Assembly: GCA_000002445.1 (NCBI GenBank)
Contig: CP000069.1
Coordinates: 64,001-128,000, forward strand
Direction of reading: 5' to 3'
Source of the DNA: Trypanosoma brucei
Lineage: Eukaryota
Length of the DNA: 64,000 bases
Both the position numbers and the translations under genes were made by a program. The number at the start of each line of letters is the position of its first letter. The stretch's first letter is position 1. Of this stretch, positions 21,661-64,000 are shown piece after piece. Under the pieces are notes generated by a model, which did no database searches, was not told the origin of the DNA, and saw nothing but the letters and a program-made list of their open reading frames with translations.

Positions 21661-21830
21661 ACATAAGATTTCACACACGAAAAGTGTCACACATTACCGA
21701 AAATATGTGCTGGCAGGAAGGTGGTGGAAGAGGATGTGTGTACCCTCATGGAAACTGCAGGCGGAACCTTACCGCAAGGAGCCCTGCAAGGCGTTACAGC
21801 AAGTACAAGCACTCACCTGTCATTACTGCT

Positions 21831-24800: not shown

Positions 24801-25469
24801 TGCGACATCCGACACGATGAAGTGACGAAGGGATATGACTACTATGGGCGGACTCCAAACATGGCAGCAAGGACAGAGAGTGTAGCAAATGGTGGTCAGG
24901 TGCTGATGACGCATGAGGTTTACCTGTCACTGTCAGCTGAGGAGCGTGAGCAAATTGATGTCACTGCACTTGGTGATGTTGCACTTCGCGGCGTGAATGA
25001 TCCTGTGGAAATGTACCAGTTGAATGCCGTGCCTGGCCGCAACTTTGCTGCATTACGGCTGGATCGCGAATTCTTTGATGAAGACGAGGATGGCACGACA
25101 ACCTCCACAAGCGACCACAGTTCTTCACGTGCCGAGCTGAGTGAATCAGCACAATCGATATTGAACTCACTGCAGTCTGTTTTCCGAACTTTTAAAGCAG
25201 CGCAACGGGGGAATCTTCTGGCGTCGCTTTGTGAGCGTTGGCGTGTGCCTCTTCCCCGTGAAGCCGCATTCGAGTGGGATGACGCCTACTGTGAGGAAGT
25301 GGTGCGTCGCATTGCAGTTAAGGTTGGGCGTGTCGCTGACCGTAGCGCTCAAAGTGGAAGCAGTGAAGCTTCTGTGAGTACTGAAGAGGGCTCAATCATA
25401 ATTGTTCCATTCGTTGGTTCACATTTCAGGGAAGGCCACTTTGGGTGTCCGCTTCCGTCGTTACATTAG
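21831..25469 (+). CDS. GRESAG4: Receptor-type adenylate cyclase of the GRESAG4/ESAG4 family, copy 2, intact.
   Basis: The ORF is listed from 21684, but that codon is GTG. The first in-frame ATG is at 21705. The ATG at 21831 begins 'MSLLHLLPLLLMWMPPVCADD', a typical signal peptide. The TM region is 'IAGIIAGCVVGLILFIVLGVLL'. The catalytic motifs match copy 1. The C-terminus is '...VPFVGSHFREGHFGCPLPSLH'. Confidence 0.9.
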   Translation: MSLLHLLPLLLMWMPPVCADDSAVTVKVLSMMYNPDYTDNEINALNAGFDASLSAHSWKTGSNATISVIRPPSPNATIEDIFQQGMNQSEDKLLVVFGSLGTDHVSWVRDKLNENDLVGLAPVAYSSEVRGWNPHLYFISVEPNAELLALIRYAVVYLRVPRIGMMHVKSSTASMGPYEFAVQILEMMGRELCGMFVVKESENQNISEDDLNVRWRQFVATRPQAILLFSSLVDGSITWFIKKVAQDNRTANAYLLSTSLQQGPLINMWREALALANRTFTPGQLITTGTVPLANDTRFSLIRHFQRDVNNYLKTKSDWKGFAKPDHYLEDDNAGEMMVYGWLAGEVLFQALNNAPQLTNRTSFRESLYKQRRYVIDDLVVGDFGGECDEAVALQGAMCECNQGGNLVYMKSIVNGFRPAPLREGFLTWGVSECSSANVQVSAPLSGLFLLLADNEVALRASRKWFLGAEAHSKKVDDIDNRIFFHPLTVSSENVTQSLEQVRDNRDVSAVFGIMPGGLLDRKDLMFISPMALGPRMNWFRRNVIHILPLLAQQLYVLAVYLSNTSSRGVNAFIRSAHAMKVEDALHKSLDTFGVPLDSSKTLGDGDPIASYLSGDGDVFTIGLTLTDVAVVARHLQTHRRARVFIPFNDLAMYYDEFVVAFNASKESIASSERLLFATSFPHWAEKDTKSDVVASFHRIVNESHWDPLTFLGFVTTRLLQVILPNMKKVNAELLADRIYTESNIKVDDMRFGPFSDVECVSGTSVSANECASNFGATNISVWSMARVLNSSVPILQRGMTPSMDYAILQEGQLTRSQIAGIIAGCVVGLILFIVLGVLLRITLRNARDNNLAPKEQTDPVTLIFTDIESSTALWAAHPELMPDAVATHHYLIRSLIGRYKCYEVKTVGDSFMIASKSPFAAVQLAQELQLRFLHHDWGTNALDESYWEFEQQRAEEDEKYTPPTARLDPEVYSRLWNGLRVRVGIHTGLCDIRHDEVTKGYDYYGRTPNMAARTESVANGGQVLMTHEVYLSLSAEEREQIDVTALGDVALRGVNDPVEMYQLNAVPGRNFAALRLDREFFDEDEDGTTTSTSDHSSSRAELSESAQSILNSLQSVFRTFKAAQRGNLLASLCERWRVPLPREAAFEWDDAYCEEVVRRIAVKVGRVADRSAQSGSSEASVSTEEGSIIIVPFVGSHFREGHFGCPLPSLH

Positions 25470-28400
25470 TGGTAGTGTTGCACGTCATAAAGCGTACAAA
25501 TATCTTAGTTTTACTCGGCGGAAAAGTTAATTAGCATACCGATTGTAGTAGTTGTTAGTGAATTTTAACGTAGTCTCGGTAGGGTTTGTCTTTTGTATCT
25601 ATTTTTATCTTTTGCCATCTATTTATTATTACATTTTTTACATTCTATTTTTGGTGGCTGCTGCCTCTGCATTAAAGCACATACTAATCTTAAGAGGGAA
25701 CATGCCCTCTGTTAGATTACACGTGCGTTGTCTTTCAAGACACTGAATTAACACATGCATGTGTTTTGCCGTGCCAGCGCCGGTTGGTTTCTTACTGTTC
25801 CAAATCCGACCCTTATGGAAGACAGGACGGCTCAACATTTCTTCTAATTTAACCAAAACGTTTTTGTTCTGTGAGTAATCACAAAACGGGATTAGCTATG
25901 TACTTTCCCTAAGGGCTCTCTTTTTTATTTGTGTCCTTGCCATTTGAGGCTTTAAGAAAAGTAAGGTGAAACATTTCTTTTTCAACACGTCTGTCCTTAA
26001 GCGTGCGAGTGCATGACTATTTTATTTTTTTAAATTCCACCTCTCACGCCCAATCCCGCAACCTTTTGGGTACAAAACTGTGTTTCCGTGTGTGTCTGTG
26101 TCACGTTTTTCTTTTTGAATCCACTTAATGCTAGCGGTGTCTTTAAATATTTTTTCATAATGAGTGTTATGTTGCATGTGTGTTTGTATGTGTTGGGTGT
26201 TATGTGGGCTGTTGTATCTCTCTCTTCGGATATACAACCCTTATCACCCTCTGCATTGCTGATGTTATATGTTGTTTCACCAGTTGCATGCTTTCTTTCC
26301 CTTCACTCATTTGTGTTGCCGTAAGGATTTAAGGTATGTGATTGCCTCCATTCCCTCCAGAGTGTGATGTCGATGCATGAGCTTAGTTATGTACTGAAAC
26401 CCGCGTTGCCTCGCAGTATAACAAAGTTCCCCCACCGTCACAGTTATTGCAGCTTATACTAATTATTGTATTGTGAGGGAGTTTTGTAACACGTTCACTC
26501 TGTTAATATTGCTGAGCCTATAATATCCTTCTGTTATTTACAACACTGTTTGGACACTCGAGGGGAGTGCAGAAATGCCGCTCCTTTATAGGGGCAAACC
26601 TCATTTATCCGTATTTTGTGGTAATTCAAGACTGAACCCTTGACATTTTAACTGTGCGATGAGGAGCTACGGCGAGTTGTGGCGGGAGGGAGCGTCTACG
26701 TCGCTGCAGTGTGTAACCTCAACTGAGCATTTGGCATACCTGTTACATGCTTCCCTTTACATCATGTGTGTTTGCGTGCATGGGCTCTGATTGTTACTTG
26801 CGCATATCTGCCGCCCTCACTTGGGGCTTTTCCCCCCATGCAGGAGTGTACGCACTGGCAGCCGCTTTGGAATATCAAAAATACTGCTACGTGCTGAAGA
26901 TATTATTTGGGAAGGGAACAAATGGAGGGAAACACTGTCGACCTTCAGGGGGAAAGGATAAACTCACCTGAATCGCAGCGGAACTCGTGCGGCTGCAGGC
27001 ATCCAACCTTTTTCCCTCAAGGACAATTGTTATCCCTGAGCGGGTTGTTTTATTAATTTTCCAGCCCTGTATGGCCGGAGTGCGTGCGGTCGCGATGTTT
27101 ATGTAACTCCTTTTGTTACATCACTTTCCTTCTTTTGTAAACCCCCGTAGTCGCCGGACGCCTCGTGCCGCATGCGGGCCCGATTAATTTTTTGGTTTGG
27201 GAATGAGATTGGAGGCACAAACTCTGATGAGGTCCACTGGCTGATCGCTGCTGCGTTGCTTAGATGCGTTTTTATCATTTCTTACTTCTTTCCAACGCTA
27301 CGTGGAGAAGGTGTGGTGACGGTGGCAGCAACCATTGGAAGTGCGAAAAAGAGGGCTCAATCATTTCAAAGTGGAAAGGGGCCCATTACCCGGAATTGAA
27401 ACTCGTCTGATCGCGAACGGCGTTTGGGTTGCGACCAGGAAATGAAATTTGTGTTACGGTCCAAATACGAAACTTGTTGGGTGGACCCAAGGAAAGAAAT
27501 AAAATGGATAAATACATGCTCTCTGCTGCATGAGACTCGGAATATGAGGAAAATGGTGCGAATGGATGTGGAGGGTGTGTCTAACCGGATGAGTGAGTGA
27601 CGACGCAACAACACGAAGATGAATGAAGGAAAAGGGAGGAGTGACAATGCATCCCAAAAGGCAGATGATTGATGTCATAAGAGGGGACCAAGTGTTTCCA
27701 CATGATTGCGGCGTCTGCAAGTAAAGTAGGGTACAAAGGAGAAAAAAAAAGAGAAAGCGGAACTGGATGAGATTCGGTTCTTCCGTCGCGCATGTTCTTA
27801 CGCCCTTCTTCCACTGCATGTGCTATGCGACATTCGTGCCCAAGGGGAAACTTTTCCTGTCTGGAAAGCGCCTTTAAGAAGTATATGAGAGGAACAGCCA
27901 GCCAGGCAGCCACACAAAAGGCGAAGGGCACAACAGAAATTATTAAGAGCCGAGACGCATTAGCCGAGGTAGAGGCTGGCGGAAACAAAACAACAAACAA
28001 GCGACTGCGGCACTGAAATAAGAAACAATCCAAACTCTTGCCCCACATCACACTTAAATACTTCCTTGCAGGAAAGAAGCAGCAACGCACATGAAATACA
28101 TATACGTGTTTGTTTGTTTGTGTGTGTGTGCTAATGTGCCATTGATCCTGTTCTTTCTTTCATTGGGGAATGACGAGAGCGGTTGCGGTGAGCTTCCTTG
28201 TGAGTGGGATAAGTTAGCAGCAACTTGCGGGGTTGCACGGATATTTATAACTCACCAACAGCCTGCCCGAGTTAAGGTGATAAAATAATACTCATTTTCT
28301 TACATACCCCATGCCGAAAAAAAAAATGGTGAGGAAACGATAAGCAGACTGCTCTCGTAAATTGAACAACAGTGGACCCGTTTGCTGAAAAAGAAATGGT

Positions 28401-31345
28401 AAATCAATATGTTATGTTAAGGATTTTAGTTACGGCAAGGAATTGCTGAAAGCGTGTGCTTCACCTGCCCCACACCCTTTCGCAACTTCTGGGCATAACC
28501 GTCCCGCCCGAAGAAATGCCGTCTGCGGGGTTGTCTGTCGATGCAACGTCGCCCCAGCTGACCACGATATTTCCCTCCAGCAATGTTTTGTTCACGAGGC
28601 GCGTTCCACTTGCCGAAACATCGAAATGTGTATTTCATTCTTTTCATGACGTGCTTGGCCGTGGCGTGTTACCAACGCATACGTAAAGCATTTGGGAGCG
28701 GGTTTCCTTCAAGGGTTTGTAATTTCAAGTCTACTGCTCTCGCCTCCACCTGCGAAACACAAAAATGTGGTTGTGCCCACTGGTCCTCCTGGGGCTCATA
28801 GCTTCCCACTAACCCTAAACGGTATTGCTTCCCAATCTTTCATTGAGGTGCCTGCGAATAATTTGGATGGTGTTGGTAAATAACTCGGTGAATTGACATA
28901 CTCGCTGTTAAGAAATATATTAAGCCACTGTTGTTTTCTCTTCATGGAATGCGATGAAAGGTGAGTCGAATCAGTTTCCTCCAATAATCATGTATTGAGC
29001 TTTAAAGGTCGTCGGCGCACCATCTTCAAAAAGAGATAATGTTGTTGGAATAGAGAATTTCCTCGTACGTCTGCCGTGTACATCATGCGGGATATTATGT
29101 TCTTCAACTGTTTTCTCGTTTTTGTTTTTTCCATCGAAGAGGCCTTCATGAGTTTTCCTACTCTCATTTTTCTATGGAAGACCAAGTGGCAACATATTTT
29201 TCTCTTGTGATAAATGTGAACCCATATGAAATTGTATTCTGCGAAGAGTTTGCTCTTCCCCACCATGGCACTGTATTGTACCATATGCTCCCTTATCATT
29301 ACACTCCAACTCCTTGATGACTTTCTGTAATACACTTTATGCGAATGTTATAAGTTCGCACATGTTTTTAGCGATGCGGTGCGGCACATTTTCGTTAAAC
29401 CACTTCTGTGTCTCTTTCCGGGGCCTGAGTATAATCGTGTGTAGGATGTCCTGAACCATATTCATGACCCATTGAAAGATGGATTGGTTCCACAAGTTTT
29501 CCACTCTTCGTTTGGCAACCGGAGACATGCGCAAATATACGCTACAAGTTCCACCTGAAAGAAAGAAACGGAGCCTTTGAGTCAAAGATGAATGCTGCAG
29601 CTTTATTGCAAACTGCGCCCAAATAACGGGACACGTGCTCTAATGAAGCCATGGTTTCATAATTATCATGGTTATTTATCAGCTTTGGCCGTGTGATAAA
29701 ACATCTACTCGTGACTTGGTTTCCCCTTCATCACTGTAAAGCTGGCACTACCCATCCCATGATGAGTCTCCAAAATAAATGCATCTACTTTGGAAACAGT
29801 CAATTTCGGTTATTGTTCCCAATCTTCCTACGCTTCGGGGCTTTACGCGTAATTTGCTACATTTCATCATATCGCCGTCGAGACTGGATGTTAGGTCTCT
29901 CTCCCTAACCCAATGCAGTGATAACCTAGTCGCATCTATCTGTTGTACCGGAAAGTTCTGCTGCTGCTGAGTCTCCGAAGTCACTTTAATTTAATGAGCA
30001 AATAACAAAATGCTGAGCCTCTGGAATGGAGACACGTGTCCCGCTACTTTCCTCGTGGGCTGTGAAATCATCTACGAGAAAGCTGCCCATTCATCAAATA
30101 TCTTTACATTAGTGCTGTTAAATTTCCTGAACCGTTTCATACGTCAGCCCGCAACTCGAGATGGCGAGCGGTGTTGCGAGGAAATCCCTTGGTGTTTACA
30201 TGCTTTCACATTTCTGCTAAAATGCGGGATTCCAAATCGTTCTCTATTGCGACTACTGCTGTTGCGTGAAGGTGAAAGTTCTCCCCTTTTTGTTGAAGGC
30301 GCCGTCATTCCGTAAGGTTTTAGTGTCTTTTTGACAAATTGACTGCTGAGTGCCGTTATTCTTTCCCACACACTCAAAAACTTTTTGATATCCCCCAACT
30401 GCGATAACCGCGTGCCTCACACTGCCCTGCACGGATCAGTATTGAAAGTTATTGTGAGAGCTCCCTAATCCACAATGATGGCATCCTTGTCATGAAGATG
30501 TGCGATAAGATTTTCCTTCCGCAGTAAAGCTATATCCCTTTCCACCAACTGGTAGTAATCCAAACCAAATGCATGACTGCTCGATTTCTTACGTTGTCCA
30601 GTGAATCGCATTTTGGATGGATTTCCCATTTCTGCATTGGCTGGGTTTGTTTTACTGGAGATTCCGCGGCTTTTCTCTGTAGAACTGAAAGATGCATATG
30701 AACTGGCGTTGCTCTGGCCGCCATCATTTACAATAAAGTTCCTGTATGCTGCGTTGTAATGTTTTTTGCGAATTGCATACTCACAATAAAGAGAAGACAG
30801 GGCCTAACCTATTCTAACTCTAAATTGGGCTTTCTCGAGAAATCGCAGGACCTTCTCGGTATCGGAGCCACATGTTCTCATGTTGGCTGCGTCCAAATGC
30901 ATTTTGCGATGTGATTTGTCTCTGAAACCCACAGCACAGTAACCGGATCATGACTCAGAGGTTTTACTATAATGATCATGACGTTTACCAGTGTCTTTGT
31001 TGGCTGGAGAGATTTAGAGTACGTTCCTTTATTTATTGTTTTCATGGGATCTAAAACCACATCCAATTGCCCTCTTTCTATTCCGTAACCCACGCACTTG
31101 AGGGTTTCGGATTTTTATATTCATGGGTATGGATTCCAATACTCTCTCGGAACTCAGCTTTCATTGTTTCCGTGGCCAAATCCCACCTTTCGGCTGCTAA
31201 AGTATTTTCCTTTCCTTGGCATAAAATGTAGAACCATAATAATTTAACTTTCCACAGCTATAGCGTCAAACTCTACTAACCAGGAGAATGGATTTTTTTT
31301 CTCTCTCAAATACGGTTGGTAAAAAGCATCGGGTTGTACATCCTT
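24363..31345. repeat. Left arm of a large inverted duplication, about 7 kb. It begins inside the GRESAG4 copy 2 catalytic domain and runs about 5.9 kb past the stop codon.
   Basis: I derived this from the sequence and the ORF track. Small ORFs in 25552-31093 reappear on the opposite strand in 51724-57268, with coordinate sums of about 82815-82820 and 0-2 aa differences each. Direct comparison of 31181-31345 with the reverse complement of 51475-51640 matches. The match is lost beyond 31345/51475. Confidence 0.9.
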
Positions 31346-51195: not shown

Positions 51196-51474
51196 GGCAA
51201 AATGAGGAAACTGGAATAACTTAATATCTTATGGAAATGAAATGGGAGACCTTGTAGCTGAGGTAGGTGGATTATTAATTGAAGTTAATGAAGGTGAAAG
51301 GAATGTGAGGGAAGTACTACCAACTACCCTTGTGGAAACAAATAAATGTAATGCAGCTATCACAGGGATTCGCAGAACTGTGTGCAATGACATTAGGGCA
51401 GTAAAGAATGCAAATGACTGCAAACGCGGCCGCCGAAGATTTGGCACAACCTGTACACGATCTTAGTGGAAAAG

Positions 51475-54400
51475 GATGTACAACCCGATGCTTTTTACCA
51501 ACCGTATTTGAGAGAGAAAAAAAATCCATTCTCCTGGTTAGTAGAGTTTGACGCTATAGCTGTGGAAAGTTAAATTATTATGGTTCTACATTTTATGCCA
51601 AGGAAAGGAAAATACTTTAGCAGCCGAAAGGTGGGATTTGGCCACGGAAAAAATGGAACTTGAGTGCCGAGAGAGTATTGGAATCCATACCCATGAATAA
51701 AAAAATCCGAAACCCTCAAGTGCGTGGGTTACGGAATAGAAAGAGGGCAATTGGATGTGGTTTTAGATCCCATGAAAACAATAAATAAAGGAACGTACTC
51801 TAAATCTCTCCAGCCAACAAAGACACTGGTAAACGTCATGATCATTATAGTAAAACCTCTGAGTCATGATCCGGTTACTGTGCTGTGGGCTTCAGAGACA
51901 AATCACATCGCAAAATGCATTTGGACGCAGCCAACATGAGAACATGTGGCTCCGATACCGAGAAGGTCCTGCGATTTCTCGAGAAAGCCCAATTTAGAGT
52001 TAGAATAGGTTAGGCCCTGTCTTCTCTTTATTGTGAGTATGCAATTCGCAAAAAACATTACAACGCAGCATACAGGAACTTTATTGTAAATGATGGCGGC
52101 CAGAGCAACGCCAGTTCATATGCATCTTTCAGTTCTACAGAGAAAAGCCGCGGAATCTCCAGTAAAACAAACCCAGCCAATGCAGAAATGGGAAATCCAT
52201 CCAAAATGCGATTCACTGGACAACGTAAGAAATCGAGTGGTCATGCATTTGGTTTGGATTACTACCAGTTGGTGGAAAGGGATATAGCTTTACTGCGGAA
52301 GGAAAATCTTATCGCACATCTTCATGACAAGGATGCCATCATTGTGGATTAGGGAGCTCTCACAATAACTTTCAATACTGATCCGTACAGGGCAGTGTGA
52401 GGCACGCGGTTATCGCAGTTGGGGGATATCAAAAAGTTTTTGAGTCTGTGGGAAGGAATAACGGCACTCAGCAGTCAATTTGTCAAAAAGACACTAAAAC
52501 CTTACGGAATGACGGCGCCTTCAACAAAAAGGGGAGAACTTTCACCTTCACGCAACAGCAGTAGTCGCAATAGAGAACGATTTGGAATCCCGCATTTTAG
52601 CAGAAATGTGAAAGCATGTAAACACCAAGGAATTTCCTCGCAACACCGCTCGCCATCTCGAGTTGCGGGCTGACGTATGAAACGGTTCAGGAAGTTTAAC
52701 AGCACTAATGTAAAGATGTTTGATGAATGGGCAGCTTTCTCGTAGTTGATTTCACAGCCCACGAGGAAAGTAGCGGGACACGTCTTCATTCCAGAGGCTC
52801 AGCATTTTGTTATTTGCTCATCAAATTAAAGTGACTTCGGAGACTCAGCAGCAGCAGAACTTTCCGGTACAACAGATAGATGCGACTAGGTTATCACTGC
52901 ATTGGGTTAGAGAGAGAGACCTAACATCCAGTCTCGACGGCGATATGATGAAATGTAGCAAATTACGCGTAAAGCCCCGAAGCGTAGGAAGATTGGGAAC
53001 AATAACCGAAATTGACTGTTTCCAAAGTAGATGCATTTATTTTGGAGACTCATCATGGGATGGGTAGTGCCAGCTTTACAGTGATGAAGGGGAAGCCAAG
53101 TCACGAGTAGATGTTTTATCACACGGCCAAAGCTGATAAATAACCATGATAATTATGAAACCATGGCTTCATTAGAGCACGTGTCCCGTTATTTGGGCGC
53201 AGTTTGCAATAAAGCTGCAGCATTCATCTTTGACTCAAAGGCTCCGTTTCTTTCTTTCAGGTGGAACTTGTAGCGTATATTTGCGCATGTCTCCGGTTGC
53301 CAAACGAAGAATGGAAAACTTGTGGAACCAATCCATCTTTCAATGGGTCATGAATATGGTTCAGGATATCCTACACACGATTATACTCAGGCCCCGGAAA
53401 GAGACACAGAAGTGGCTTAACGAAAATGTGCCGCACCGCATCGCTAAAAACATGTGCGAACTTATAACATTCGCATAAAGTGTATTACAGAAAGTCATCA
53501 AGGAGTTGGAGTGTAATGATAAGGGAGCATATGGTACAATACAGTGCCATGGTGGGGAAGAGAAAACTCTTCGCAGAATACAATTTCATATGGGTTCACA
53601 TTTATCACAAGAGAAAAATATGTTGCCACTTGGTCTTCCATAGAAAAATGAGAGTAGGAAAACTCATGAAGGCCTCTTCGATGGAAAAAACAAAAACGAG
53701 AAAACAGTTGAAGAACATAATATCCCGCATGATGTACACGGCAGACGTACGAGGAAATTCTCTATTCCAACAACATTATCTCTTTTTGAAGGTGGTGCGC
53801 CGACGACCTTTAAAGCTCAATACATGATTATTGGAGGAAACTGATTCGACTCACCTTTCATCGCATTCCATGAAGAGAAAACAACAGTGGCTTAATATAT
53901 TTCTTAACAGCGAGTATGTCAATTCACCGAGTTATTTACCAACACCATCCAAATTATTCGCAGGCACCTCAATGAAAGATTGGGAAGCAATACCGTTTAG
54001 GGTTAGTGGGAAGTTATGAGCCCCAGGAGGACCAGTGGGCGCAACCACATTTTTGTGTTTCGCAGGTGGAGGCGAGAGCAGTAGACTTGAAATTACAAAC
54101 CCTTGAAGGAAACCCGCTCCCAAATGCTTTACGTATGCGTTGGTAACACGCCACGGCCAAGCACGTCATGAAAAGAATGAAATACACATTTCGATGTTTC
54201 GGCAAGTGGAACGCGCCTCGTGAACAAAACATTGCTGGAGGGAAATATCGTGGTCAGCTGGGGCGACGTTGCATCGACAGACAACCCCGCAGACGGCATT
54301 TCTTCGGGTGGGCCGGTTATGCCCAGAAGTTGCGAAAGGGTGTGGGGCAGGTGAAGCACACGCTTTCAGCAATTCCTTGCCGTAACTAAAATCCTTAACA

Positions 54401-57400
54401 TAACATATTGATTTACCATTTCTTTTTCAGCAAACGGGTCCACTGTTGTTCAATTTACGAGAGCAGTCTGCTTATCGTTTCCTCACCATTTTTTTTTTCG
54501 GCATGGGGTATGTAAGAAAATGAGTATTATTTTATCACCTTAACTCGGGCAGGCTGTTGGTGAGTTATAAATATCCGTGCAACCCCGCAAGTTGCTGCTA
54601 ACTTATCCCACTCACAAGGAAGCTCACCGCAACCGCTCTCGTCATTCCCCAATGAAAGAAAGAACAGGATCAATGGCACATTAGCACACACACACAAACA
54701 AACAAACACGTATATGTATTTCATGTGCGTTGCTGCTTCTTTCCTGCAAGGAAGTATTTAAGTGTGATGTGGGGCAAGAGTTTGGATTGTTTCTTATTTC
54801 AGTGCCGCAGTCGCTTGTTTGTTGTTTTGTTTCCGCCAGCGTTTACCTCGGCTAATGCGTCTCGGCTCTTAATAATTTCTGTTGTGCCCTTCGCCTTTTG
54901 TGTGGCTGCCTGGCTGGCTGTTCCTCTCATATACTTCTTAAAGGCGCTTTCCAGACAGGAAAAGTTTCCCCTTGGGCACGAATGTCGCATAGCACATGCA
55001 GTGGAAGAAGGGCGTAAGAACATGCGCGACGGAAGAACCGAATCTCATCCAGTTCCGCTTTCTCTTTTTTTTTCTCCTTTGTACCCTACTTTACTTGCAA
55101 ACGCCGCAATCATGTGGAAACACTTGGTCCCCTCTTATGACATCAATCATCTGCCTTTTGGGATGCATTGTCACTCCTCCCTTTTCCTTCATTCATCTTC
55201 GTGTTGTTGCGTCGTCACTCACTCATCCGGTTAGACACACCCTCCACATCCATTCGCACCATTTTCCTCATATTCCGAGTCTCATGCAGCAGAGAGCATG
55301 TATTTATCCATTTTATTTCTTTCCTTGGGTCCACCCAACAGGTTTCGTGTTTGGACCGTAACACAAATTTCATTTCCTGGTCGCAACCCAAACGCCGTTC
55401 GCGATCAGACGAGTTTCAATTCCGGGTAATGGGCCCCTTTCCACTTTGAAATGATTGAACCCTCTTTTTCGCACTTCCAATGGTTGCTGCCACCGTCACC
55501 ACACCTTCTCCACGTAGCGTTGGAAAGAAGTAAGGAATAATAAAAACGCATCTGAGCAACGCAGCAGCGATCAGCCAGTGGACCTCATCAGAGTTTGTGC
55601 CTCCAATCTCATTCCCAAACCAAAAAATTAATCGGGCCCGCATGCGGCACGAGGCGTCCGGCGACTACGGGGGTTTACAAAAGAAGGAAAGTGATGTAAC
55701 AAAAGGAGTTACATAAACATCGCGACCGCACGCACTCCGGCCATACAGGGCTGGAAAATTAATAAAACAACCCGCTCAGGGATAACAATTGTCCTTGAGG
55801 GAAAAAGGTTGGATGCCTGCAGCCGCACGAGTTCCGCTGCGATTCAGGTGAGTTTATCCTTTCCCCCTGAAGGTCGACAGTGTTTCCCTCCATTTGTTCC
55901 CTTCCCAAATAATATCTTCAGCACGTAGCAGTATTTTTGATATTCCAAAGCGGCTGCCAGTGCGTACACTCCTGCATGGGGGGAAAAGCCCCAAGTGAGG
56001 GCGGCAGATATGCGCAAGTAACAATCAGAGCCCATGCACGCAAACACACATGATGTAAAGGGAAACATGTAACAGGTATGCCAAATGCTCAGTTGAGGTT
56101 ACACACTGCAGCGACGTAGACGCTCCCTCCCGCCACAACTCGCCGTAGCTCCTCATCGCACAGTTAAAATGTCAAGGGTTCAGTCTTGAATTACCACAAA
56201 ATACGGATAAATGAGGTTTGCCCCTATAAAGGAGCGGCATTTCTGCACTCCCCTCGAGTGTCCAAACAGTGTTGTAAATAACAGAAGGATATTATAGGCT
56301 CAGCAATATTAACAGAGTGAACGTGTTACAAAACTCCCTCACAATAAAATAATTAGTATAAGCTGCAATAACTGCGACGGTGAGGGAACTTTGTTATACT
56401 GCGAGGCAACGCGGGTTTCAGTACATAACTAAGCTCATGCATCGACATCACACTCTGGAGGGAATGGAGGCAATCACATACCTTAAATCCTTACGGCAAC
56501 ACAAATGAGTGAAGGGAAAGAAAGCATGCAACTGGTGAAACAACATGTAACATCAGCAATGCAGAGGGTGATAAGGGTTGTATATCCGAAGAGAGAGATA
56601 CAACAGCCCACATAACACCCAACACATACAAACACACATGCAACATAACACTCATTATGAAAAAATATTTAAAGACACCGCTAGCATTAAGTGGATTCAA
56701 AAAGAAAAACGTGACGCAGACACACACGGAAACACAGTTTTGTACCCAAAAGGTTGCGGGATTGGGCGTGAGAGGTGGAATTTAAAAAAATAAAATAAAA
56801 TAGTCATGCACTCGCACGCTTAAGGACAGACGTGTTGAAAAAGAAATGTTTCACCTTATTTTTCTTAAAGCCTCAAATGGCAAGGACACAAATAAAAAAG
56901 AGAGCCCTTAGGGAAAGTACATAGCTAATCCCGTTTTGTGATTACTCACAGAACAAAAACGTTTTGGTTAAATTAGAAGAAATGTTGAGCCGTCCTGTCT
57001 TCCATAAGTGTCGGATTTGGAACAGTAAGAAACCAACCGGCGCTGACACGGCAAAACACATGCATGTGTTAATTCAGTGTCTTGAAAGACAACGCACGTG
57101 TAATCTAACAGAGGGCATGTTCCCTCTTAAGATTAGTATGTGCTTTAATGCAGAGGCAGCAGCCACCAAAAATAGAATGTAAAAAATGTAATAATAAATA
57201 GATGGCAAAAGATAAAAATAGATACAAAAGACAAACCCTACCGAGACTACGTTAAAATTCACTAACAACTACTACAATCGGTATGCTAATTAACTTTTCC
57301 GCCGAGTAAAACTAAGAGATTTGTACGCTTTATGACGTGCAACAGTACCACTAATGTAACGACGGAAGCGGACACCCAAAGTGGCCTTCTCTGAAATGTG

Positions 57401-58457
57401 AACCAACGAATGGAACAATTATGATTGAGCCCTCTTCAGTACTCACAGAAGCTTCACTGCTTCCACTTTGAGCGCTACGGTCAGCGACACGCCCAACCTT
57501 AACTGCAATGCGACGCACCACTTCCTCACAGTAGGCGTCATCCCACTCGAATGCGGCTTCACGGGGAAGAGGCACACGCCAACGCTCACAAAGCGACGCC
57601 AGAAGATTCCCCCGTTGCGCTGCTTTAAAAGTTCGGAAAACAGACTGCAGTGAGTTCAATATCGATTGTGCTGATTCACTCAGCTCGGCACGTGAAGAAC
57701 TGTGGTCGCTTGTGGAGGTTGTCGTGCCATCCTCGTCTTCATCAAAGAATTCGCGATCCAGCCGTAATGCAGCAAAGTTGCGGCCAGGCACGGCATTCAA
57801 CTGGTACATTTCCACAGGATCATTCACGCCACGAAGTGCAACATCACCAAGTGCAGTGACATCAATTTGCTCACGCTCCTCAGCTGACAGTGACATGTAA
57901 ACCTCATGCGTCATCAGCACCTGACCACCATTTGCTACACTCTCTGTCCTTTCTGCCATGTTTGGAGTCCGCCCATAGTAGTCATATCCCTTCGTCACTT
58001 CATCGTGTCGGATGTCGCACAACCCGGTGTGGATTCCAACACGTACACGCAGGCCATTCCACAAACGACTGTACACTTTGAGGTCCAACCGCGCAGTTGG
58101 CGGTGTGTACTTCTCGTCCTCCTCCGCACGCTGCTGCTCCAACTGCTGGTAAGAATCATCAATCGCATTTGTTCCCCAGTCATGATGCAAGAAACACAGC
58201 TGTAGTTCCTGTGCGAGTTGGACGGCAGCGAAAGGACTCTTACTCGCTATCATGAACGAATCCCCAACAGTTTTGACTTCGTAGCACTTATACCTCCCAA
58301 TCAGTGAACGAATCAAATAGTGATGTGTCGCAACGGCATCAGGCATCAGCTCAGGGTGTGCAGCCCACAACGCAGTGCTGCTCTCAATGTCAGTAAATAT
58401 TAGTGTCACGGGGTCAGTTTGTTCCTTGGGTGCAAGATTGTTATCACGGGCATTCCG
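51475..58457. repeat. Right arm of the inverted duplication, the reverse-complement copy of 24363-31345. It covers the 3' flank and the catalytic/C-terminal coding part of GRESAG4 copy 3.
   Basis: Same evidence as the left arm. The protein from 57351-58583 is near-identical to the copy 2 C-terminal 400 aa, including an identical 'FVGSHFREGHFGCPLPSLH' tail. Confidence 0.9.
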
Positions 58458-60950
58458 GTGTGTTGCTAATATAACAACCACAAGAACCGTAACAAGCGGC
58501 ACCAACATTACGACGAAGCCAACTGCAATAGCGGCAATTTGCTCAGTCATCTGTTGGATCCATCTCGGTTCATCATAGGTCACTCACAGTGTGGCAGACG
58601 ACAGCGCAGAGGACACAAAAGGGTTTAGAACATGTGACATCGACCATACAAAAATATGCATCCCACCACCGTTGACAACAGTGCTTCGCCTCAAGTCAAG
58701 TTTCGTTCGTACACTTGTCTCCAAACGACCCATACATTGCAGGACACTTCCCATTGCGTATGCGATGGCAGACCCAAGTAGTGACAATGGCTTCCACTTC
58801 GACTCATTCTGCACGATCTTGCGGAACTCACGTACTGTTTTGGACTCCGTGATCTTATCCCTCCGATGTGACAGATTCGTTGCGAATAGCAAGGGGTTAG
58901 AAAATGGCTTTTCATGGAAGGCACTCACGAGTTCGCCGTGGATTGGTGCATCATCGAAGAATAGGACAAAGACGTGCACATTACGGTGTTTGTTAGGGTG
59001 AAAGAGGATTATGGGGATATTATATGGGATAAGACCTACAACCAATACCTGACATGCAGTTGACAGCTTGTCTCTCAAATTAGGACCTTCACCACTCGCA
59101 ACAAAGAAGCTTAGTGATGTGTTAAAGTTGTCAAGTGTTTTTGCAACATATTCCTAATTCCTCTCGTATCACCACCACGACACACAATGACATGCATTCT
59201 TCCTGCACCATTTTGTATAATATGCTCAACTATCATAAATAACTGCTGCTCATTTGTTGGTAACAGGTGGATCACATTCCTTCTGGGGTTACTCGGTTGT
59301 GATGTGAGTATTATAGGATCGATGAATGCCATACCCTTCGTCCGCAGTAACGAATTATCCACGACACCAAACACAGCAGTTACAACTCGTTTCTCAACAT
59401 CATTATACAGAGTTGCAGAAGCTTCGTAAGATTTCGAGGATAGTCAGTGTAAAAAGAAACCATCAGAGTGACCCAGTTGACCTTTGCCAACAACATGAGG
59501 GACACCATCGTATACCATCTATGCAGCACGCAGTGCCTTTGGGTCATCGGTTATATTAAACATGACCCCACTCAATGGGCCATACAACTGTGGCAGGTCT
59601 CGATAACAGCGAGATGAACCAAGGGTTAATATAGCTTCCTTCATAGGGTGTAGATGGAGATCCTTTTCCACCTTCTTCATGCACATCACACTCCCACCTT
59701 GGTTACGTAAACACGATACACCCCGCTCTCCCGCCATATTACGGCACTCACCACCAAAGTCACCAACCACAATATTATCAATTGGATAACGACGTTTATT
59801 GTACAGTGATTTCATAAATACACCCCTGCTAGTTAGCTATTCGTGACAACTCAGTGCCTGTTTCAATACCTCTCCAGCAACCCATCTGTTCAATGTCAGC
59901 TCAGCTTCAGCGTCTTGCTCGGTGAAGTTATTTTCGTTAATATCCCACCTTGTGCGCTTATAGTTATTACCATTAACCTTTAACAACATAGTCATATCAT
60001 CCCTGAAACGCCTGACAGCTTTGTATGTGTCACCCTTCGTAATTAGGTCAGCCCCAGTTATTATTATTTTATCAGCCACAAACTCGTCTCTGCCCAATTT
60101 ATATGCCCACTTGTTCTTGACGGCGTGTTGGAGTGCAGAGGGTGTATGAATAAATATTCGCCTCTCGTCCTGTGGTCATATAATCATTTCATGGGGAATC
60201 TCTTCATATCAGGGATTGGAGAACCAAATACAATCACTCCCTGAGGTCCAGTATCGGCAACCTTATTCCACTCCGCACTGAAGCTACTGTTATCCGATTC
60301 CTTACCAATTTGACTCTTCAATGCAAAAAAATAACAACTAAACAACTTGCGATTCATCCGTGTTGCCAACTACGCAGCAAGCTTATACTCATCATCACCA
60401 TAAGAAACATCTTTCAAATACATGAAATCCAGTCGGTGTGACCGTAACTGAGTGATAGCATAACGGAAAAGAGCAAGCATCTCAACGGCGAGTGATGCTT
60501 CCAGGAGTCATAAATTGGGATTCCAACTGTGTACCCTACTGAATCCTGTGAAGGGCAAAAAATCAACTACACATTCTTTTCATTGAAATATTTGGTTAAG
60601 TTGAGAGTATTTTTGTCACCCACAGGTTCCAGTATAATGGCAAGCTCATCACCGTAATTGGTTGTACAGATGGCGTATCCAAAGTCATCCATAGACGAAA
60701 CATGTGCAACTGCCACACTGACACACGGAAGCGACTTTCCGTTGGTAATAGATGCGTTGAAGCCTGCAGTAATAGGATCAAATACCTTTGCTGAAATCTT
60801 GTCACTGTATAACATGTTGTATACCCTTACCCATATTAATCCATTTGCAAGCTATACTTCAGCCAGCAGCTGTAGTAATATAGAAAAACACCACGTAAGT
60901 GACTACGCCATCTCTAGCATGTAATTCACGCATGGAGGTAACCGTGATAC
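57351..60950 (-). pseudogene. GRESAG4: GRESAG4 copy 3, a mosaic pseudogene. The TM, catalytic and C-terminal part (57351-58583) is an intact ORF. The extracellular domain is broken into at least six out-of-frame pieces.
   Basis: Minus-strand fragments at 58584-59078, 59111-59374, 59519-59815, 59837-60097, 60184-60369 and 60567-60815 are homologous to, but clearly diverged from, the extracellular domains of copies 1 and 2. They lie in shifting frames. The catalytic domain carries an A-to-E change in 'GRTPNMAERTESV'. The N-terminal end is estimated. Confidence 0.8.
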
Positions 60951-62012
60951 TAGTAACTCAACGTAATTCAACTTTCAAACTACAGGACAAAAACGGCATA
61001 ATAACAAAGTATTGGTACAAGATTAATAGACTGCATGTGTATATGTAAGAGCGTGGGAAAGGGAACTACTGTAGTGGATAACATTACACAAACCATAACA
61101 GCGAGAAAGTAGTTCAACACACATTCCCCCATACACCCACATATCATTCATGTATCCGATACAAAAACATAAAACATCACTAGGCATAAGGGTAAATGTG
61201 TAGATAGAACATTACAGTATCATAAACTGGATTGCCATTAACAAAAACACAGCACACTAACAGTCACAGTTAACACTCAAACTGTAAATTTTAACTCACA
61301 ACATCACGGCAGACATTGCTCAGTTTCATATTCCTTGACTGTCTAGGAGTAAAAGAGAGTGTGCGAGAGAATATGAGGAAAGCTTCAGCAACCATAGAGA
61401 AATATAAAGGAAGTTATACACATGTATCAGATATTGCAAATAGTTACATGCAGCAAGGTGATTAAGAGATACCTTACAAGCCAGCATCTCCGAATGAAAA
61501 AAAAAAATTAGGGTAGACGCGAGGGATAAGCACAGGAGGTCACTTTTACTTCGCTATAGCCTCCGCTTCATGGGCATCACCTTATTATCAAACACATTTT
61601 TAAATGCAAGGACACAGCTCCTAACAACACATTAGAGGTGGAGCGCCTCACATGACAACGGACCACACGGACGGCAATATAAATTTAAATAAGATATTAT
61701 TTAGAAGAAGTTAAGCATTAATAGTGGCGTGGATGCACACATCCCTCACTACGTTAAACAGAAAATTAACGACTTTCATATATTGTAATCAAAAGATAGT
61801 ATGCCCATTTCAAAAATAAAATGCATCCCTGTGCATAAAAATATTTAAACACCCAACATATGAGGAAAATATTGCATGCACAAAAAGTTGGGGAGCAAAG
61901 TATTAGAAGAACACTATATGAAGTGAATCTAAAAAAAGTTTGCACATATTATATAAACATTATTATCCATTTACAACAACAAAACATACATACATCAATG
62001 TCATGAGAAATA

Positions 62013-64000
62013 TTAACAGGTACTACCAACACTTTCCAGGTCAATCAAATCAGTGGTGCAGCGTCGTCCCTCAACATAGGAAAAGTTTGAAGATGAAGCA
62101 ACCGTTGCAACAGTAGCTCCTCCAGGTGAAAATAGACTTCCACCCCTTTCCAATGATGTCACACTGCTGGAGGAGCTCCTCGTTCCAAAATCCATAACAC
62201 AACCCACCTTTGCAGCAATCCGACGGGTAACACAGCGACAACTGGCTTCATTCCAAGCATCCACCCCTGGGGGCTTCTTAACATGCCAACGCTCACAAAA
62301 TGTTGCAAGCATCTTCTGTCGCTGGATAACTGGAAATGCGCCAATGAGGGCATCAATGCAACCAGCAACCTGTTGAGCGGTGGCAGTTAAACCACACTCA
62401 TTAAAGCTCGACTCACTAGCGCTACTACCTGTTCCAACATCTTCTTCATCCTCGATTTCACGTTCCAGCCGTAATGCAGCAAAGTTGCGGCCAGGCACGG
62501 CATTCAACTGGTACATTTCCACAGGATCGGGCACACCACGTAGCGGCACATCACCAAGTGCAGTGACATCAATTTGCTCACGCTCCTCAGCTGACAGTGA
62601 CATGTAAACCTCATGCGTCATCAGCACCTGACCACCATTTGCTACACTCTCTGTCCTTGCTGCCATGTTTGGAGTCCGCCCATAGTAGTCATATCCCTTC
62701 GTCACTTCATCGTGTCGGATGTCGCACAACCCGGTGTGGATTCCAACACGTACACGCAGGCCATTCCACAAACGACTGTACACTTTAAGGTCCAACCGCG
62801 CAGTTGGCGGTGTGTACTTCTCGTCCTCCTCCGCACGCTGCTGCTCAAACTGCTGGTAAGAATCATCAACTGCATTTGTTCCCCAGTCATGTTGCAAGAA
62901 ACACAGCTGTAATTCCTGTGCGAGTTGGACGGCAGCGAAAGGACTCTTACTCGCTATCATGAACGAATCCCCAACAGTTTTGACTTCGTAGCACTTATAC
63001 CTCCCAATCAGTGAACGAATCAAATAGTGATGTGCCGCAACGGCATCGGGCATCAGCTCAGGGTGTGCAGCCCACAACGCAGTGCTGCTCTCAATGTCAG
63101 TAAATATTAGTGTCACAGGGTCCGTTGGCTCCTTGGGTGCAAGATTGTTATCACGAGCATTCCGCAGGGTGATGCGTAGGAGCACACCAAGGGCAATAAA
63201 AGGTATCAAGCCGGCTATACACCCGATACCTATGCCGGCTATCTGTGACCCTGTGAGACGACTCCCTCCTGAAATGATATACCCCATAGACGGTGTCATG
63301 CCGCGTTGCAATATGGGCACACTTGAATTCAGCACACGCGCCATCGACCATACAGAAATGTTTGTGGCTCCAAAGTTTGAGGCACACTCATTTGCCGAAA
63401 CACTCGTACCAGAAACACATTCCACATCACTGAAGGGTCCAAATCGCATGTCATCCACTTTGATGTTGGACTCCGTGTAAATGCGGTCTGCCAGCAGCTC
63501 TGCATTCACTTTCTTCATATTCGGGAGAATCACTTGAAGCAGCCGAGTGGTAACAAAACCTAAGAACGTTAGTGGATCCCAATGCGATTCATTCACAATG
63601 CGATGGAAACTCGCAACCACATCTGATTTCGTGTCCTTCTCCGCCCAGTGTGGGAAACTCGTCGCGAATAGGAGCCGCTCTGAGCTAGCAATAGACTCTT
63701 TACTCGCATTAAACGCAGCTACAAACTCATCGTAGTACATTGCAAGGTCATTGAATGGAATGAATACACGTGCCCTGCGGTGGGTCTGAAGGTGCCGCGC
63801 AACTGCAGCAACGTCAGTGAGAGTGAGTCCAATAGTAAACACATCTCTATTACCCGAGAGATATGACGATATCGGGTCACCATCACCAAGTGTCTTGCTG
63901 GAATCAAGCGGCACACCAAACGTGTCCAATGACTTGTACAGCAGGCTACTGATCTCCACTACTTGCTCACTACGTATGAGTGCATTTACTCCTCTGGAAG
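62013..64000 (-). CDS. GRESAG4: GRESAG4 copy 4, partial. Its 5' end lies beyond the window. In the part visible, the C-terminal two-thirds are present and intact.
   Basis: The 648-aa ORF has the TM region 'IAGIGIGCIAGLIPFIALGVLL', the full catalytic-domain motifs and a distinct C-terminal tail. The frame stays open upstream of the listed start (63959). Translating 63960-64000 gives '...SRGVNALIRSEQVV', which is homologous to 'SRGVNAFIRSAHAM' in copy 2. Confidence 0.85.
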   Translation of the reverse strand, partial: SRGVNALIRSEQVVEISSLLYKSLDTFGVPLDSSKTLGDGDPISSYLSGNRDVFTIGLTLTDVAAVARHLQTHRRARVFIPFNDLAMYYDEFVAAFNASKESIASSERLLFATSFPHWAEKDTKSDVVASFHRIVNESHWDPLTFLGFVTTRLLQVILPNMKKVNAELLADRIYTESNIKVDDMRFGPFSDVECVSGTSVSANECASNFGATNISVWSMARVLNSSVPILQRGMTPSMGYIISGGSRLTGSQIAGIGIGCIAGLIPFIALGVLLRITLRNARDNNLAPKEPTDPVTLIFTDIESSTALWAAHPELMPDAVAAHHYLIRSLIGRYKCYEVKTVGDSFMIASKSPFAAVQLAQELQLCFLQHDWGTNAVDDSYQQFEQQRAEEDEKYTPPTARLDLKVYSRLWNGLRVRVGIHTGLCDIRHDEVTKGYDYYGRTPNMAARTESVANGGQVLMTHEVYMSLSAEEREQIDVTALGDVPLRGVPDPVEMYQLNAVPGRNFAALRLEREIEDEEDVGTGSSASESSFNECGLTATAQQVAGCIDALIGAFPVIQRQKMLATFCERWHVKKPPGVDAWNEASCRCVTRRIAAKVGCVMDFGTRSSSSSVTSLERGGSLFSPGGATVATVASSSNFSYVEGRRCTTDLIDLESVGSTC

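What the first reader, a model, noticed from the sequence alone, without database searches (positions are those of the whole stretch)
57351..60950. GRESAG4 copy 3 is a mosaic: decayed divergent extracellular domain, a copy-4-like patch in the catalytic domain, then a copy-2-identical C-terminus and 3' flank
In the first part of the catalytic domain, copy 3 reads '...AIDDSYQQLEQQ...ARLDLKVY...', matching copy 4 ('AVDDSYQQFEQQ...ARLDLKVY'). Copy 2 differs there ('ALDESYWEFEQQ...ARLDPEVY'). From about 'GDVALRGVNDPVEMY' onward, copy 3 is identical to copy 2 and differs from copy 4 ('GDVPLRGVPDPVEMY...LEREIEDEEDVG'). Upstream, the extracellular domain is a different and frameshifted paralogue. This patchwork looks like segmental gene conversion between tandem and inverted family members. 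The process would resemble mosaic VSG formation, with a pseudogene serving as a sequence donor or acceptor.
Basis: partly seen in the sequence, partly recalled or inferred. Interest (0 to 1): 0.6.

Follow-up and report, generated by a model that had tools for sequence, protein, structure and literature searches.

The report
Mosaic adenylate cyclase pseudogene in trypanosome
A dead copy of a Trypanosoma brucei surface adenylate cyclase gene really is a patchwork of three relatives, made by one large inverted duplication plus small copy-paste events from neighbouring genes. This kind of patchwork is already well documented for this gene family, so the case is ordinary.

Summary
The window is T. 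b. brucei TREU927 chromosome 6.

- **Extracellular domain.** Copy 3 (57351-60945, minus strand) has a badly decayed extracellular domain and transmembrane segment of a different subfamily. It has lost its start codon and carries about 4 frameshifts and at least 8 in-frame stops.
- **Junction with copy-2-type sequence.** At 58458|58457, inside the conserved RNARDNN motif, the decayed part joins copy-2-type sequence.
- **What the copy-2-type part is.** It is one arm of a 6,988-bp inverted duplication (24363-31345 against 58457-51472, 98.9% identical), not just a converted C-terminus and flank.
- **The patch.** Sixteen of the 69 substitutions between the arms fall in 301 bp (scan p about 2e-5; triplet test p about 3e-5). 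A tract of 257-322 bp (58152-57896) carries copy-4 states.
- **Timing.** The T. b. equiperdum orthologue shares the junction and an older copy-4-type patch (58083-58079). It lacks the young tract and has other patches from other paralogues.

The best explanation is an old segmental event followed by repeated short ectopic gene conversions, with the pseudogene as acceptor. Sequence mosaics in GRESAG4 arrays are already published (Jackson 2007; Jackson et al. 2010). The analogy to mosaic VSG formation covers the recombination mechanism only. This is a new example of a known process, of low interest.

The parts
57351..60945 (-). Copy 3 (c3), a GRESAG4-type receptor adenylate cyclase pseudogene, taken as a whole.
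   Evidence: tblastn with full-length family members covers 60942-57354 in frames 2, 3, 2, 1, 3. Pfam PF25493 matches the extracellular-domain fragments and PF00211 matches the 410-aa ORF.
58458..60945 (-). Decayed extracellular domain and transmembrane segment of a different (P0078-like) subfamily. The start ATG is now ACG. There are about 4 frameshifts and at least 8 in-frame stops, including 58586-58584.
   Evidence: It differs from the T. equiperdum orthologue at only about 1.1% of sites, with no indel at the frameshift positions, so the decay predates the strain split.
58457..58458 (-). Junction between the P0078-type and c2-type sequence. It lies in the codons of the conserved RNARDNN motif, at the 5' edge of the block conserved across the whole family.
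   Evidence: Identity to c2 rises from about 45% to 100% here. The same junction is present in T. equiperdum. The transmembrane segment is P0078-like and the sequence after the junction is c2-like.
58163..58457 (-). The c2-type start of the catalytic domain (KEQTDP..., AVATHHYLIRSLIGRYKCYE).
   Evidence: There are only 2 differences from c2 (58449, 58431). Seven informative sites have c3 = c2 and differ from c4.
57896..58152 (-). Young c4-type conversion tract. This is its minimum extent; the maximum is 58162-57841. It encodes QQLEQQ...LDLKVY...THEVYM.
   Evidence: c3 = c4 at 58152, 58147, 58145, 58092 and 57896, while the T. equiperdum c3 keeps the other states. Triplet test p = 3e-5. The c3-private sites 58140, 58080 and 57952 are interleaved with the c4-type sites.
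58079..58083 (-). Older c4-type patch (LDLKVY in place of LDPEVY), possibly extending to 58164.
   Evidence: The states are shared by c3, c3 of T. equiperdum, c4 and c4 of T. equiperdum. They are absent from c1, c2, L001 and the P0057 gene.
57351..57840 (-). The c2-type end of the catalytic domain, the C-terminal tail and the stop codon.
   Evidence: There are two silent differences from c2 (57831, 57390). Identity to c4 is about 50%.
51472..58457 (-). Arm B of the 6,988-bp inverted duplication: the 3' part of c3 plus about 5.9 kb of downstream flank.
   Evidence: Self-BLAST gives 98.9% identity, 69 substitutions and 2 indels. The outer end is sharp.
24363..31345 (+). Arm A of the inverted duplication: the 3' part of c2 plus its flank.
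   Evidence: An independent copy in contig L001 is 99.6% identical.
21684..25469 (+). Copy 2 (c2), an intact GRESAG4. It is the partner for the c2-type part of c3. The likely start codon is the ATG at 21705 or 21831.
62013..64000 (-). Copy 4 (c4), an intact GRESAG4 lying in tandem directly upstream of c3. It is the likely donor of the patch and is cut by the window end.
   Evidence: It is 100% identical over 648 aa to XP_845156.1 of TREU927. Its nucleotide similarity to c3 is limited to 57724-58457.
8196..11909 (-). Copy 1 (c1), an intact and more distant GRESAG4, used here as an outgroup.

Best explanation
Copy 3 is an old, dead cyclase gene that was rebuilt in two kinds of step.

**Step 1, inferred.** A P0078-type GRESAG4 had already decayed. 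Everything from the conserved RNARDNN motif onward, together with about 5.9 kb of downstream DNA, then became an inverted copy of the 3' part of copy 2 and its flank. The mechanism would be a segmental duplication or a long-tract, break-induced replication event. One end is anchored at the first stretch of homology shared by the two subfamilies. This happened before TREU927 and T. b. equiperdum diverged.

**Step 2, shown by pattern.** The new catalytic domain has since received repeated short, non-reciprocal gene conversions of about 40-320 bp from other family members.
- An older copy-4-type patch (58083-58079, perhaps extending to 58164) is shared by both strains.
- A younger tract of 257-322 bp (58152-57896) is present only in TREU927. 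It came from copy 4 or a very similar gene of the neighbouring array.
- The T. equiperdum orthologue received different patches, from c1/P0057-type and c4-type donors.

In TREU927 the pseudogene is the acceptor. The process is ordinary homologous recombination between paralogues. The conserved catalytic core acts as the homology, and there is no sign of a function for the product.
For: - **Inverted repeat.** It is 6,988 bp long, 98.9% identical, and has sharp ends.
- **Clustering of differences.** 16 of the 69 differences between the arms fall in 301 bp (scan p = 2e-5). The run of 11 c4-like informative sites gives p = 3e-5.
- **State of the extracellular domain.** It has about 4 frameshifts and at least 8 stops, while the 1.1-kb c2-type part has none. 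The 3' part is therefore much younger than the decay.
- **Junction.** It lies in a motif conserved in both subfamilies and is shared with T. equiperdum.
- **Age of the duplication.** Seven flank sites group each arm with its own orthologue, which places the duplication before the strain split.
- **Age of the young tract.** At 58152, 58147, 58145, 58092 and 57896, c3 = c4 in TREU927, but the T. equiperdum c3 has the other state. The QQ codons are present in six TREU927 array genes.
- **Divergence between strains.** c3 differs from its T. equiperdum orthologue at 5.5% of sites in the catalytic and tail region, against 1.1% in the dead extracellular domain and 1.75% in the flank (Fisher p = 4e-12).
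- **Further patches in T. equiperdum.** They lie at 58136-58112, 57840-57822 and 57687-57648.
- **Family-wide reticulation.** The minimum number of recombination events (Hudson-Kaplan Rm) is at least 19 in 734 bp, and a PHI-like (pairwise homoplasy) permutation test gives p = 2e-4.
- **Published precedent.** Gene conversion and sequence mosaics in GRESAG4 arrays are described in PMC1855330 (Fig. 4) and PMC2854126 (Table 2).
Against: - The young tract is seen only in the TREU927 reference. No second assembly of that strain covers c3.
- c3 and c4 differ at 3 sites inside the tract (58140, 58080, 57952). One of them (58140, giving QQL) matches the proteins XP_845148/9, so the donor may not be c4 itself.
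- The DNA of the other TREU927 array genes could not be retrieved.
- About 5 of the 16 patch differences are changes on the c2 side.
- The direction of the 7-kb event (which arm is the copy) and its mechanism are not determined.
- Some T. equiperdum differences, such as the 1-bp deletions, may be long-read errors.
- The T. equiperdum c4-like gene may not be the strict orthologue of c4, because TREU927 has a four-gene array there.
Confidence: 0.85

Rival explanations
1. The differences in the patch arose on the copy 2 side, by mutation of c2 or conversion of c2 from an unseen donor. Copy 3 simply keeps the ancestral sequence of the duplicated arm.
For: - 58196 is private to the window's c2, because contig L001 has the c3 state.
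- At 58164/3, 58155 and 58148 only c2 and L001 differ from every other copy. These sites give the WE codons, against RE or QQ elsewhere.
Against: - At 58152, 58147, 58145, 58092, 58083, 58081, 58079 and 57896, c2 agrees with c1, while c3 agrees with c4.
- At five of these sites the T. equiperdum c3 keeps the c2/c1 state, so the change occurred on the TREU927 c3 lineage.
- This rival therefore explains at most about 5 of the 16 sites.
Confidence: 0.08
2. The patch is an assembly artefact: reads from copy-4-type genes were merged into the consensus of copy 3 in the TREU927 reference.
For: - The catalytic domains are 91-99% identical between copies.
- The young tract has no independent confirmation.
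- Jackson 2007 warned about mis-assembly of tandem duplicates.
Against: - Three c3-private variants (58140, 58080, 57952) are interleaved with the c4-type sites, so the sequence is not that of c4.
- The patch lies only about 300 bp from the unique extracellular-domain junction, within one Sanger read.
- The independent T. equiperdum assembly confirms the junction, the older patch and the patchy nature of this pseudogene.
Confidence: 0.04
3. The mosaic reflects a selected diversification system analogous to mosaic VSG formation. In this view cyclase pseudogenes serve as sequence stores that are copied into functional genes.
For: - The family shows pervasive reticulation.
- In T. equiperdum the functional neighbour and the pseudogene share AIDDSYRE. 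Transfer from pseudogene to gene is one possible cause.
- Durante 2020 speculates that cyclase pseudogenes may relate to functional diversity.
Against: - In TREU927 both events put sequence into the pseudogene, not out of it.
- The exchanged region is the conserved catalytic core, not the variable ligand-binding domain.
- The changes are fixed in the germline and are few.
- The RE codons are the widespread, probably ancestral, state, so the T. equiperdum pattern does not need a pseudogene donor.
Confidence: 0.03

Closest known systems
Gene conversion and sequence mosaics in T. brucei tandem gene arrays, including GRESAG4 arrays (Jackson 2007, PMC1855330; Jackson et al. 2010, PMC2854126)
   Same: - Short, mostly non-reciprocal tracts pass between neighbouring duplicates.
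- Breakpoints fall in coding sequence and in UTRs.
- The mosaics differ between strains or subspecies.
- Adenylate cyclase arrays are explicit examples (Fig. 4 of the 2007 paper; five GRESAG4 arrays in Table 2 of the 2010 paper).
   Different: - The acceptor here is a decayed pseudogene lying just outside the array.
- One partner (c2) is inverted and about 32 kb away.
- The largest event is a 7-kb segmental duplication that includes non-coding flank, not a tract within a gene.
- This particular locus was not found described in the papers read.
Segmental (mosaic) VSG gene formation in T. brucei
   Same: It is a patchwork assembled by homologous recombination among members of a multigene family that includes pseudogenes.
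   Different: - From general knowledge of the system, and from the titles and abstracts of PMC3708902 and PMC13233330, VSG mosaics are made somatically during infection in a telomeric expression site. Pseudogenes act as donors and the product is functional and selected.
- Here the events are fixed in the germline, one of them before a strain split.
- The pseudogene is the acceptor and the product is dead.
- The locus is chromosome-internal.
Truncated or pseudogenised receptor adenylate cyclases of salivarian trypanosomes (Durante et al. 2020, PMC7719234)
   Same: c3 belongs to the reported class of fragmented receptor cyclase genes. In T. b. brucei 21% of these genes are truncated.
   Different: That study classified the genes by phylogeny and domain content. 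It did not dissect breakpoints or donors of individual pseudogenes.
Gene-pseudogene interlocus conversion in other organisms, for example human CYP21A2/CYP21A1P (own knowledge, not tested here)
   Same: Short conversion tracts pass between a functional gene and an adjacent pseudogene in a duplicated module.
   Different: In the human case the medically relevant direction is from pseudogene to gene. Here only the direction from gene to pseudogene is supported.

Membership tests
GRESAG4 / trypanosomatid receptor-type adenylate cyclase | Class III cyclase catalytic domain (Pfam PF00211). | tested here: met
   The 410-aa ORF 57351-58583 matches PF00211 with E = 1.6e-45.
GRESAG4 / trypanosomatid receptor-type adenylate cyclase | Extracellular domain resembling a periplasmic binding protein (PF25493/PF25495), N-terminal to a single transmembrane segment. 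| tested here: met
   Fragments 58584-59078 and 59111-59374 match PF25493 (E = 9e-30 and 2e-20). tblastn is colinear with full-length family members. A hydrophobic segment, IAAIAVGFVVMLVPLVTVLVVVI, precedes the junction.
GRESAG4 / trypanosomatid receptor-type adenylate cyclase | Intact open reading frame of about 1,200-1,270 aa, i.e. a functional gene. | tested here: not met
   The start ATG is now ACG. There are about 4 frameshifts and at least 8 in-frame stops upstream of 58583. c3 is a family member by descent but is a pseudogene.
Ectopic (interlocus) gene conversion tract | An internal segment whose closest relative differs from that of the sequence on both sides. | tested here: met
   The pattern is c2-like at 58457-58205, c4-like at 58152-57896, and c2-like from 57840.
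Ectopic (interlocus) gene conversion tract | Clustering of discordant sites beyond chance. | tested here: met
   Triplet permutation p = 3e-5. Scan statistic p = 2e-5.
Ectopic (interlocus) gene conversion tract | Non-reciprocity, and a defined donor and acceptor. | tested here: inconclusive
   c4 carries no c2-type states in the tract. The T. equiperdum c3 keeps the pre-conversion states, which favours transfer from c4-type into c3. However, XP_845148 matches the patch slightly better than c4 at protein level, and its DNA was not retrievable.
Inverted segmental duplication | Long, near-identical inverted copies that extend through non-coding DNA and have sharp ends. | tested here: met
   24363-31345 against 58457-51472: 6,988 bp at 98.9% identity. 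About 5.9 kb has no convincing gene, and the outer end is abrupt.
Mosaic VSG-type diversification | Pseudogenes act as donors to an expressed, functional gene. | tested here: not met
   In TREU927 the pseudogene is the acceptor of both the 7-kb event and the 257-322-bp tract. The product is still a pseudogene.
Mosaic VSG-type diversification | Somatic assembly during infection in a telomeric expression site, under antibody selection. | not testable with these tools
   Only germline reference assemblies were available. The junction and the older patch are fixed in two taxa, which argues for evolutionary rather than somatic events.

The most novel reading that the evidence does not exclude
Cyclase pseudogenes such as copy 3 might not be only sinks. 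They may occasionally donate sequence back to the adjacent functional array, which would make them a small reservoir of catalytic-domain variants. In T. equiperdum the neighbouring gene and the pseudogene share AIDDSYRE. Alternatively, the intact 398-410-aa ORF (transmembrane segment, catalytic domain and tail) might be expressed as a truncated cyclase subunit that pairs with full-length cyclases.
Probability: 0.08. Interest if true: 0.45.

Novelty: new member of a known kind. Interest (0 to 1): 0.2.

Why it matters
The case is a clean, well-resolved example of how the trypanosome receptor cyclase family is reshuffled.

- The conserved catalytic core acts as the homology on which recombination occurs. 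The variable extracellular domain and the C-terminal tail are exchanged as modules on either side of it.
- Because of imported patches, the catalytic region of a dead gene diverges between strains five times faster than its own dead extracellular domain. This is a caution for phylogenies and orthology calls built on cyclase catalytic domains.
- It does not change the current understanding, since mosaics in GRESAG4 arrays have been described since 2007-2010.

Tried and rejected
- **Exact-protein look-ups that found nothing.** The c3 ORF, two c2 start variants, XP_845158 (P0058), XP_845149 (P0056) and the adenosine transporter were not on record. TREU927 DNA outside the window, including the best alternative donor XP_845148, could therefore not be examined.
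- **First protein search.** Using the 410-aa ORF as query returned only short or partial proteins and no close T. brucei relatives. The full-length c2 query was needed.
- **Search for a third lineage.** The adenosine transporter has no relative of 90% identity or more outside TREU927 in the collection. No copy of c3 from T. b. gambiense or another strain was obtained.
- **The DAL972 locus.** The T. b. gambiense locus L002 holds a paralogue next to the haptoglobin-haemoglobin receptor gene (HpHbR), not the orthologous locus.
- **Codon-wise translation of the nine-sequence alignment.** It was spoiled by a gap column and was replaced by a protein alignment.
- **A mobile element or tRNA at the repeat ends.** No tRNA genes were found, and there is no repeat at the outer end of the duplication.
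- **Coding genes in the duplicated flank.** The 169-aa ORFs have no Pfam match and are of low complexity.
- **GARD and RDP.** They could not be run. A 3SEQ-like triplet permutation, a scan statistic, the four-gamete Rm and a PHI-like test were used instead.


Full report
**Source and layout.**
- The window holds an ingi-type retrotransposon ORF (2240-5725, minus strand) and four receptor-type adenylate cyclase copies:
  - c1: 8196-11909 (minus strand).
  - c2: 21684-25469 (plus strand).
  - c3: 57351 to about 60945 (minus strand).
  - c4: 62013 to beyond 64000 (minus strand).
- c4 is 100% identical over 648 aa to XP_845156.1 of T. b. brucei TREU927 chromosome 6.
- The nucleoside transporter at 47910-49301 is 100% identical to a TREU927 chromosome 6 protein.
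- The window is therefore TREU927 chromosome 6. c4 is the first gene of a four-gene array, XP_845156-59.

**Check of the observation.**
- The c3 extracellular domain is split over four frame changes and carries at least eight in-frame stops. Its first ATG is now ACG.
- Its nearest relative among the retrieved proteins is a different subfamily, P0078, at 57-68% amino-acid identity. It is only 29-35% identical to c2.
- Pfam confirms PF25493 in the extracellular-domain fragments and PF00211 in the intact 410-aa ORF 57351-58583.
- In a four-way nucleotide alignment the informative sites read as follows:
  - c2-like at 58422-58205 (7 sites).
  - c4-like at 58196-57896 (11 of 12 sites).
  - c2-like from 57840 onward.
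- A permutation test on the order of informative sites gives p = 3e-5.
- From 57895 to the stop codon, c3 and c2 differ at two silent sites only.

**What the c2-like part really is.**
- Self-comparison of the window shows that the c2/c3 similarity is a 6,988-bp inverted repeat. It runs from 24363-31345 against 58457-51472, at 98.9% identity with 69 substitutions and two small indels.
- It covers the catalytic domain, the C-terminal tail and about 5.9 kb of downstream DNA. That DNA has no convincing gene. The outer end of the repeat is abrupt.
- 16 of the 69 substitutions fall in 301 bp (24624-24924, equal to 58196-57896). That is 5.3% against a background of 0.79%. The scan statistic gives p = 2e-5.
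- The inner end of the repeat (58458|58457) lies in the codons for RNARDNN. This motif is conserved in both the P0078-type and the c2-type subfamilies. The c3 transmembrane segment upstream is P0078-like, and everything downstream is c2-like.
- The junction therefore sits at the first nucleotide homology that the two subfamilies share, as expected for a homology-driven event.

**Comparison with other genomes.** TREU927 DNA outside the window could not be fetched. Three other sources were found.
- *Two contaminant contigs.* Contigs labelled Schistosoma mansoni are T. brucei DNA.
  - L001 matches window 19404-35471 at 99.6% identity.
  - L004 holds a c4-like gene.
- *The orthologous locus.* A T. 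b. equiperdum locus (L003, CM010677.1:79047-102865) matches window 64000-54736 at 96.7% identity over 9.3 kb. It contains the orthologues of c4, c3 and the flank.
- *What the T. equiperdum c3 shares.* It has the same junction (58469-58458) and the same decayed extracellular domain. The extracellular domains differ at about 1.1% of sites, with no indel at the frameshift positions.
- *Age of the duplication.* In the flank, seven sites group each arm with its own orthologue, so the duplication predates the split of the two taxa.
- *Order of events.* About a dozen disabling lesions lie in the extracellular domain and none in the 1.1-kb c2-type part. c3 was therefore already dead when its 3' part was replaced. 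This last step is an inference.

**Dissection of the patch.** The 16 differences fall into five groups.
- 58196 is private to the window's c2, because L001 has the c3 state.
- 58164/3, 58155 and 58148 are specific to the c2 lineage. They give the WE codons, against RE or QQ elsewhere.
- 58083, 58081 and 58079 (LDLKVY) are shared by c3 and c4 in both taxa and are absent from c1, c2 and the P0057 gene. This is an older import of c4-type sequence.
- 58152, 58147, 58145, 58092 and 57896 are shared by c3 and c4 in TREU927 only. The T. equiperdum c3 keeps the other states. This is a younger tract, at least 257 bp long (58152-57896) and at most 322 bp (58162-57841).
- 58140, 58080 and 57952 differ between c3 and c4.
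  - At protein level XP_845148 matches QQLEQQ...LDLKVY exactly, while only c4 has THEVYM. The donor is therefore c4 or a close array relative.
  - The substitution at 57952 changes the conserved NMAARTES motif to NMAERTES.

**The process is repeated and general.**
- The T. equiperdum c3 carries other patches:
  - c1/P0057-type at 58136-58112.
  - c4-type at 57840-57822.
  - P0057-type at 57687-57648.
- It also has a 51-bp in-frame deletion that removes GRYKCYEVKTVGDSFMI.
- Between the two taxa, c3 differs at 5.5% of sites in the catalytic and tail region. The figure is 1.1% in the dead extracellular domain and 1.75% in the flank (Fisher p = 4e-12). For a pseudogene this is best explained by imported sequence.
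- Across seven catalytic-domain sequences, 57% of informative site pairs fail the four-gamete test. The minimum number of recombination events (Hudson-Kaplan Rm) is at least 19 in 734 bp, and a PHI-like (pairwise homoplasy) permutation test gives p = 2e-4.
- c2 is itself modular. It has a c4-type extracellular domain at about 94% identity up to 25096, then a tail and part of a 3' UTR of the P0057/GRESAG4.1 type.

**Comparison with the literature.**
- Jackson 2007 reported 76 gene-conversion events in 21 T. brucei tandem arrays. A GRESAG4 array is a worked example (Fig. 4). Most events were non-reciprocal and some spanned UTRs.
- Jackson et al. 2010 found sequence mosaics in 31 of 35 arrays compared between subspecies, including five GRESAG4 arrays.
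- Durante et al. 2020 noted that 21% of T. b. brucei receptor cyclases are truncated.
- No paper found describes this particular pseudogene.
- The similarity to mosaic VSG formation is limited to the use of homologous recombination among family members. Here the events are in the germline, the pseudogene is the acceptor, and the product is non-functional.

**Verdict.** The finding is a new example of a well-described process and is of low general interest.

Noticed in passing
window 19404-35471; L001 (NW_017386323.1) and L004 (NW_017386571.1): Two contigs of the Schistosoma mansoni RefSeq assembly GCF_000237925.1 are T. brucei DNA. L001 is 99.6% identical to the window. They are annotated as Schistosoma proteins (Smp_112590, XP_018644084.1, Smp_186530), so this is apparent contamination of a public assembly. 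Apart from this record, the intact c2 ORF has no relative of 90% identity or more in the protein collection.
   Followed up: partly
window 24363-31345 and 51472-58457, with 31346-51471 between them: The two 7-kb arms, 98.9% identical and inverted, flank a 20-kb segment. That segment holds an adenosine transporter gene (47910-49301, plus strand) and leucine-rich-repeat gene fragments. Such a layout could allow inversion of the segment by homologous recombination. The transporter has no relative of 90% identity or more outside TREU927 in the collection.
   Followed up: no
L003 17507 (equivalent to window 58298-58248): The T. b. equiperdum orthologue of c3 has a 51-bp in-frame deletion that removes GRYKCYEVKTVGDSFMI. 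From general knowledge of class III cyclases, this stretch includes one of the two metal-binding aspartates. The catalytic domain is therefore independently inactivated there.
   Followed up: partly
L003 1-9259 against window 21940-12682; L004 1-1573 against window 14254-12682: In T. b. equiperdum and in contig L004, the intergenic region that separates c1 and c2 in the window abuts a c4-type gene at the point equivalent to window 12682. The window has the 5' region of c1 there. The locus is thus built from larger duplicated blocks, and the array structure differs between genomes or has collapsed in assembly.
   Followed up: partly
window 21345-26600 (c2): c2 is itself modular. Its extracellular domain is about 94% identical to c4-type genes up to 25096. 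Its C-terminal tail and a 448-bp piece of 3' UTR (26048-26495) match the GRESAG4 next to the haptoglobin-haemoglobin receptor gene (HpHbR) in T. b. gambiense, the 3' piece at 98% identity. The exchange point is the 3' edge of the conserved catalytic block.
   Followed up: partly
window 61600-62199: The 3' end of c4 and its downstream region differ from T. b. equiperdum at 57 sites in 600 bp, far above the roughly 1% seen nearby. This may reflect paralogy within the four-gene array or another exchange.
   Followed up: no
window 57952: A c3-private C-to-A change turns the conserved NMAARTES motif into NMAERTES. This fits neutral decay of the otherwise intact catalytic ORF.
   Followed up: no
window 1002-5725 (minus strand): A long ORF of 1,161 aa has the sequence character of a non-LTR (ingi-like) retrotransposon. 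It is followed by a 438-aa ORF with C2H2 zinc fingers (Pfam PF13894). Both lie next to c1.
   Followed up: no
window 32775-34639 (minus strand): Several adjacent short ORFs have leucine-rich-repeat-like sequence. They are probably fragments of a decayed LRR protein gene in the segment between the inverted arms. Pfam found no match for the 217-aa ORF.
   Followed up: no
window 1-431: Imperfect direct repeats, about 81% identical with a period of roughly 170-250 bp, lie at the left end of the window.
   Followed up: no
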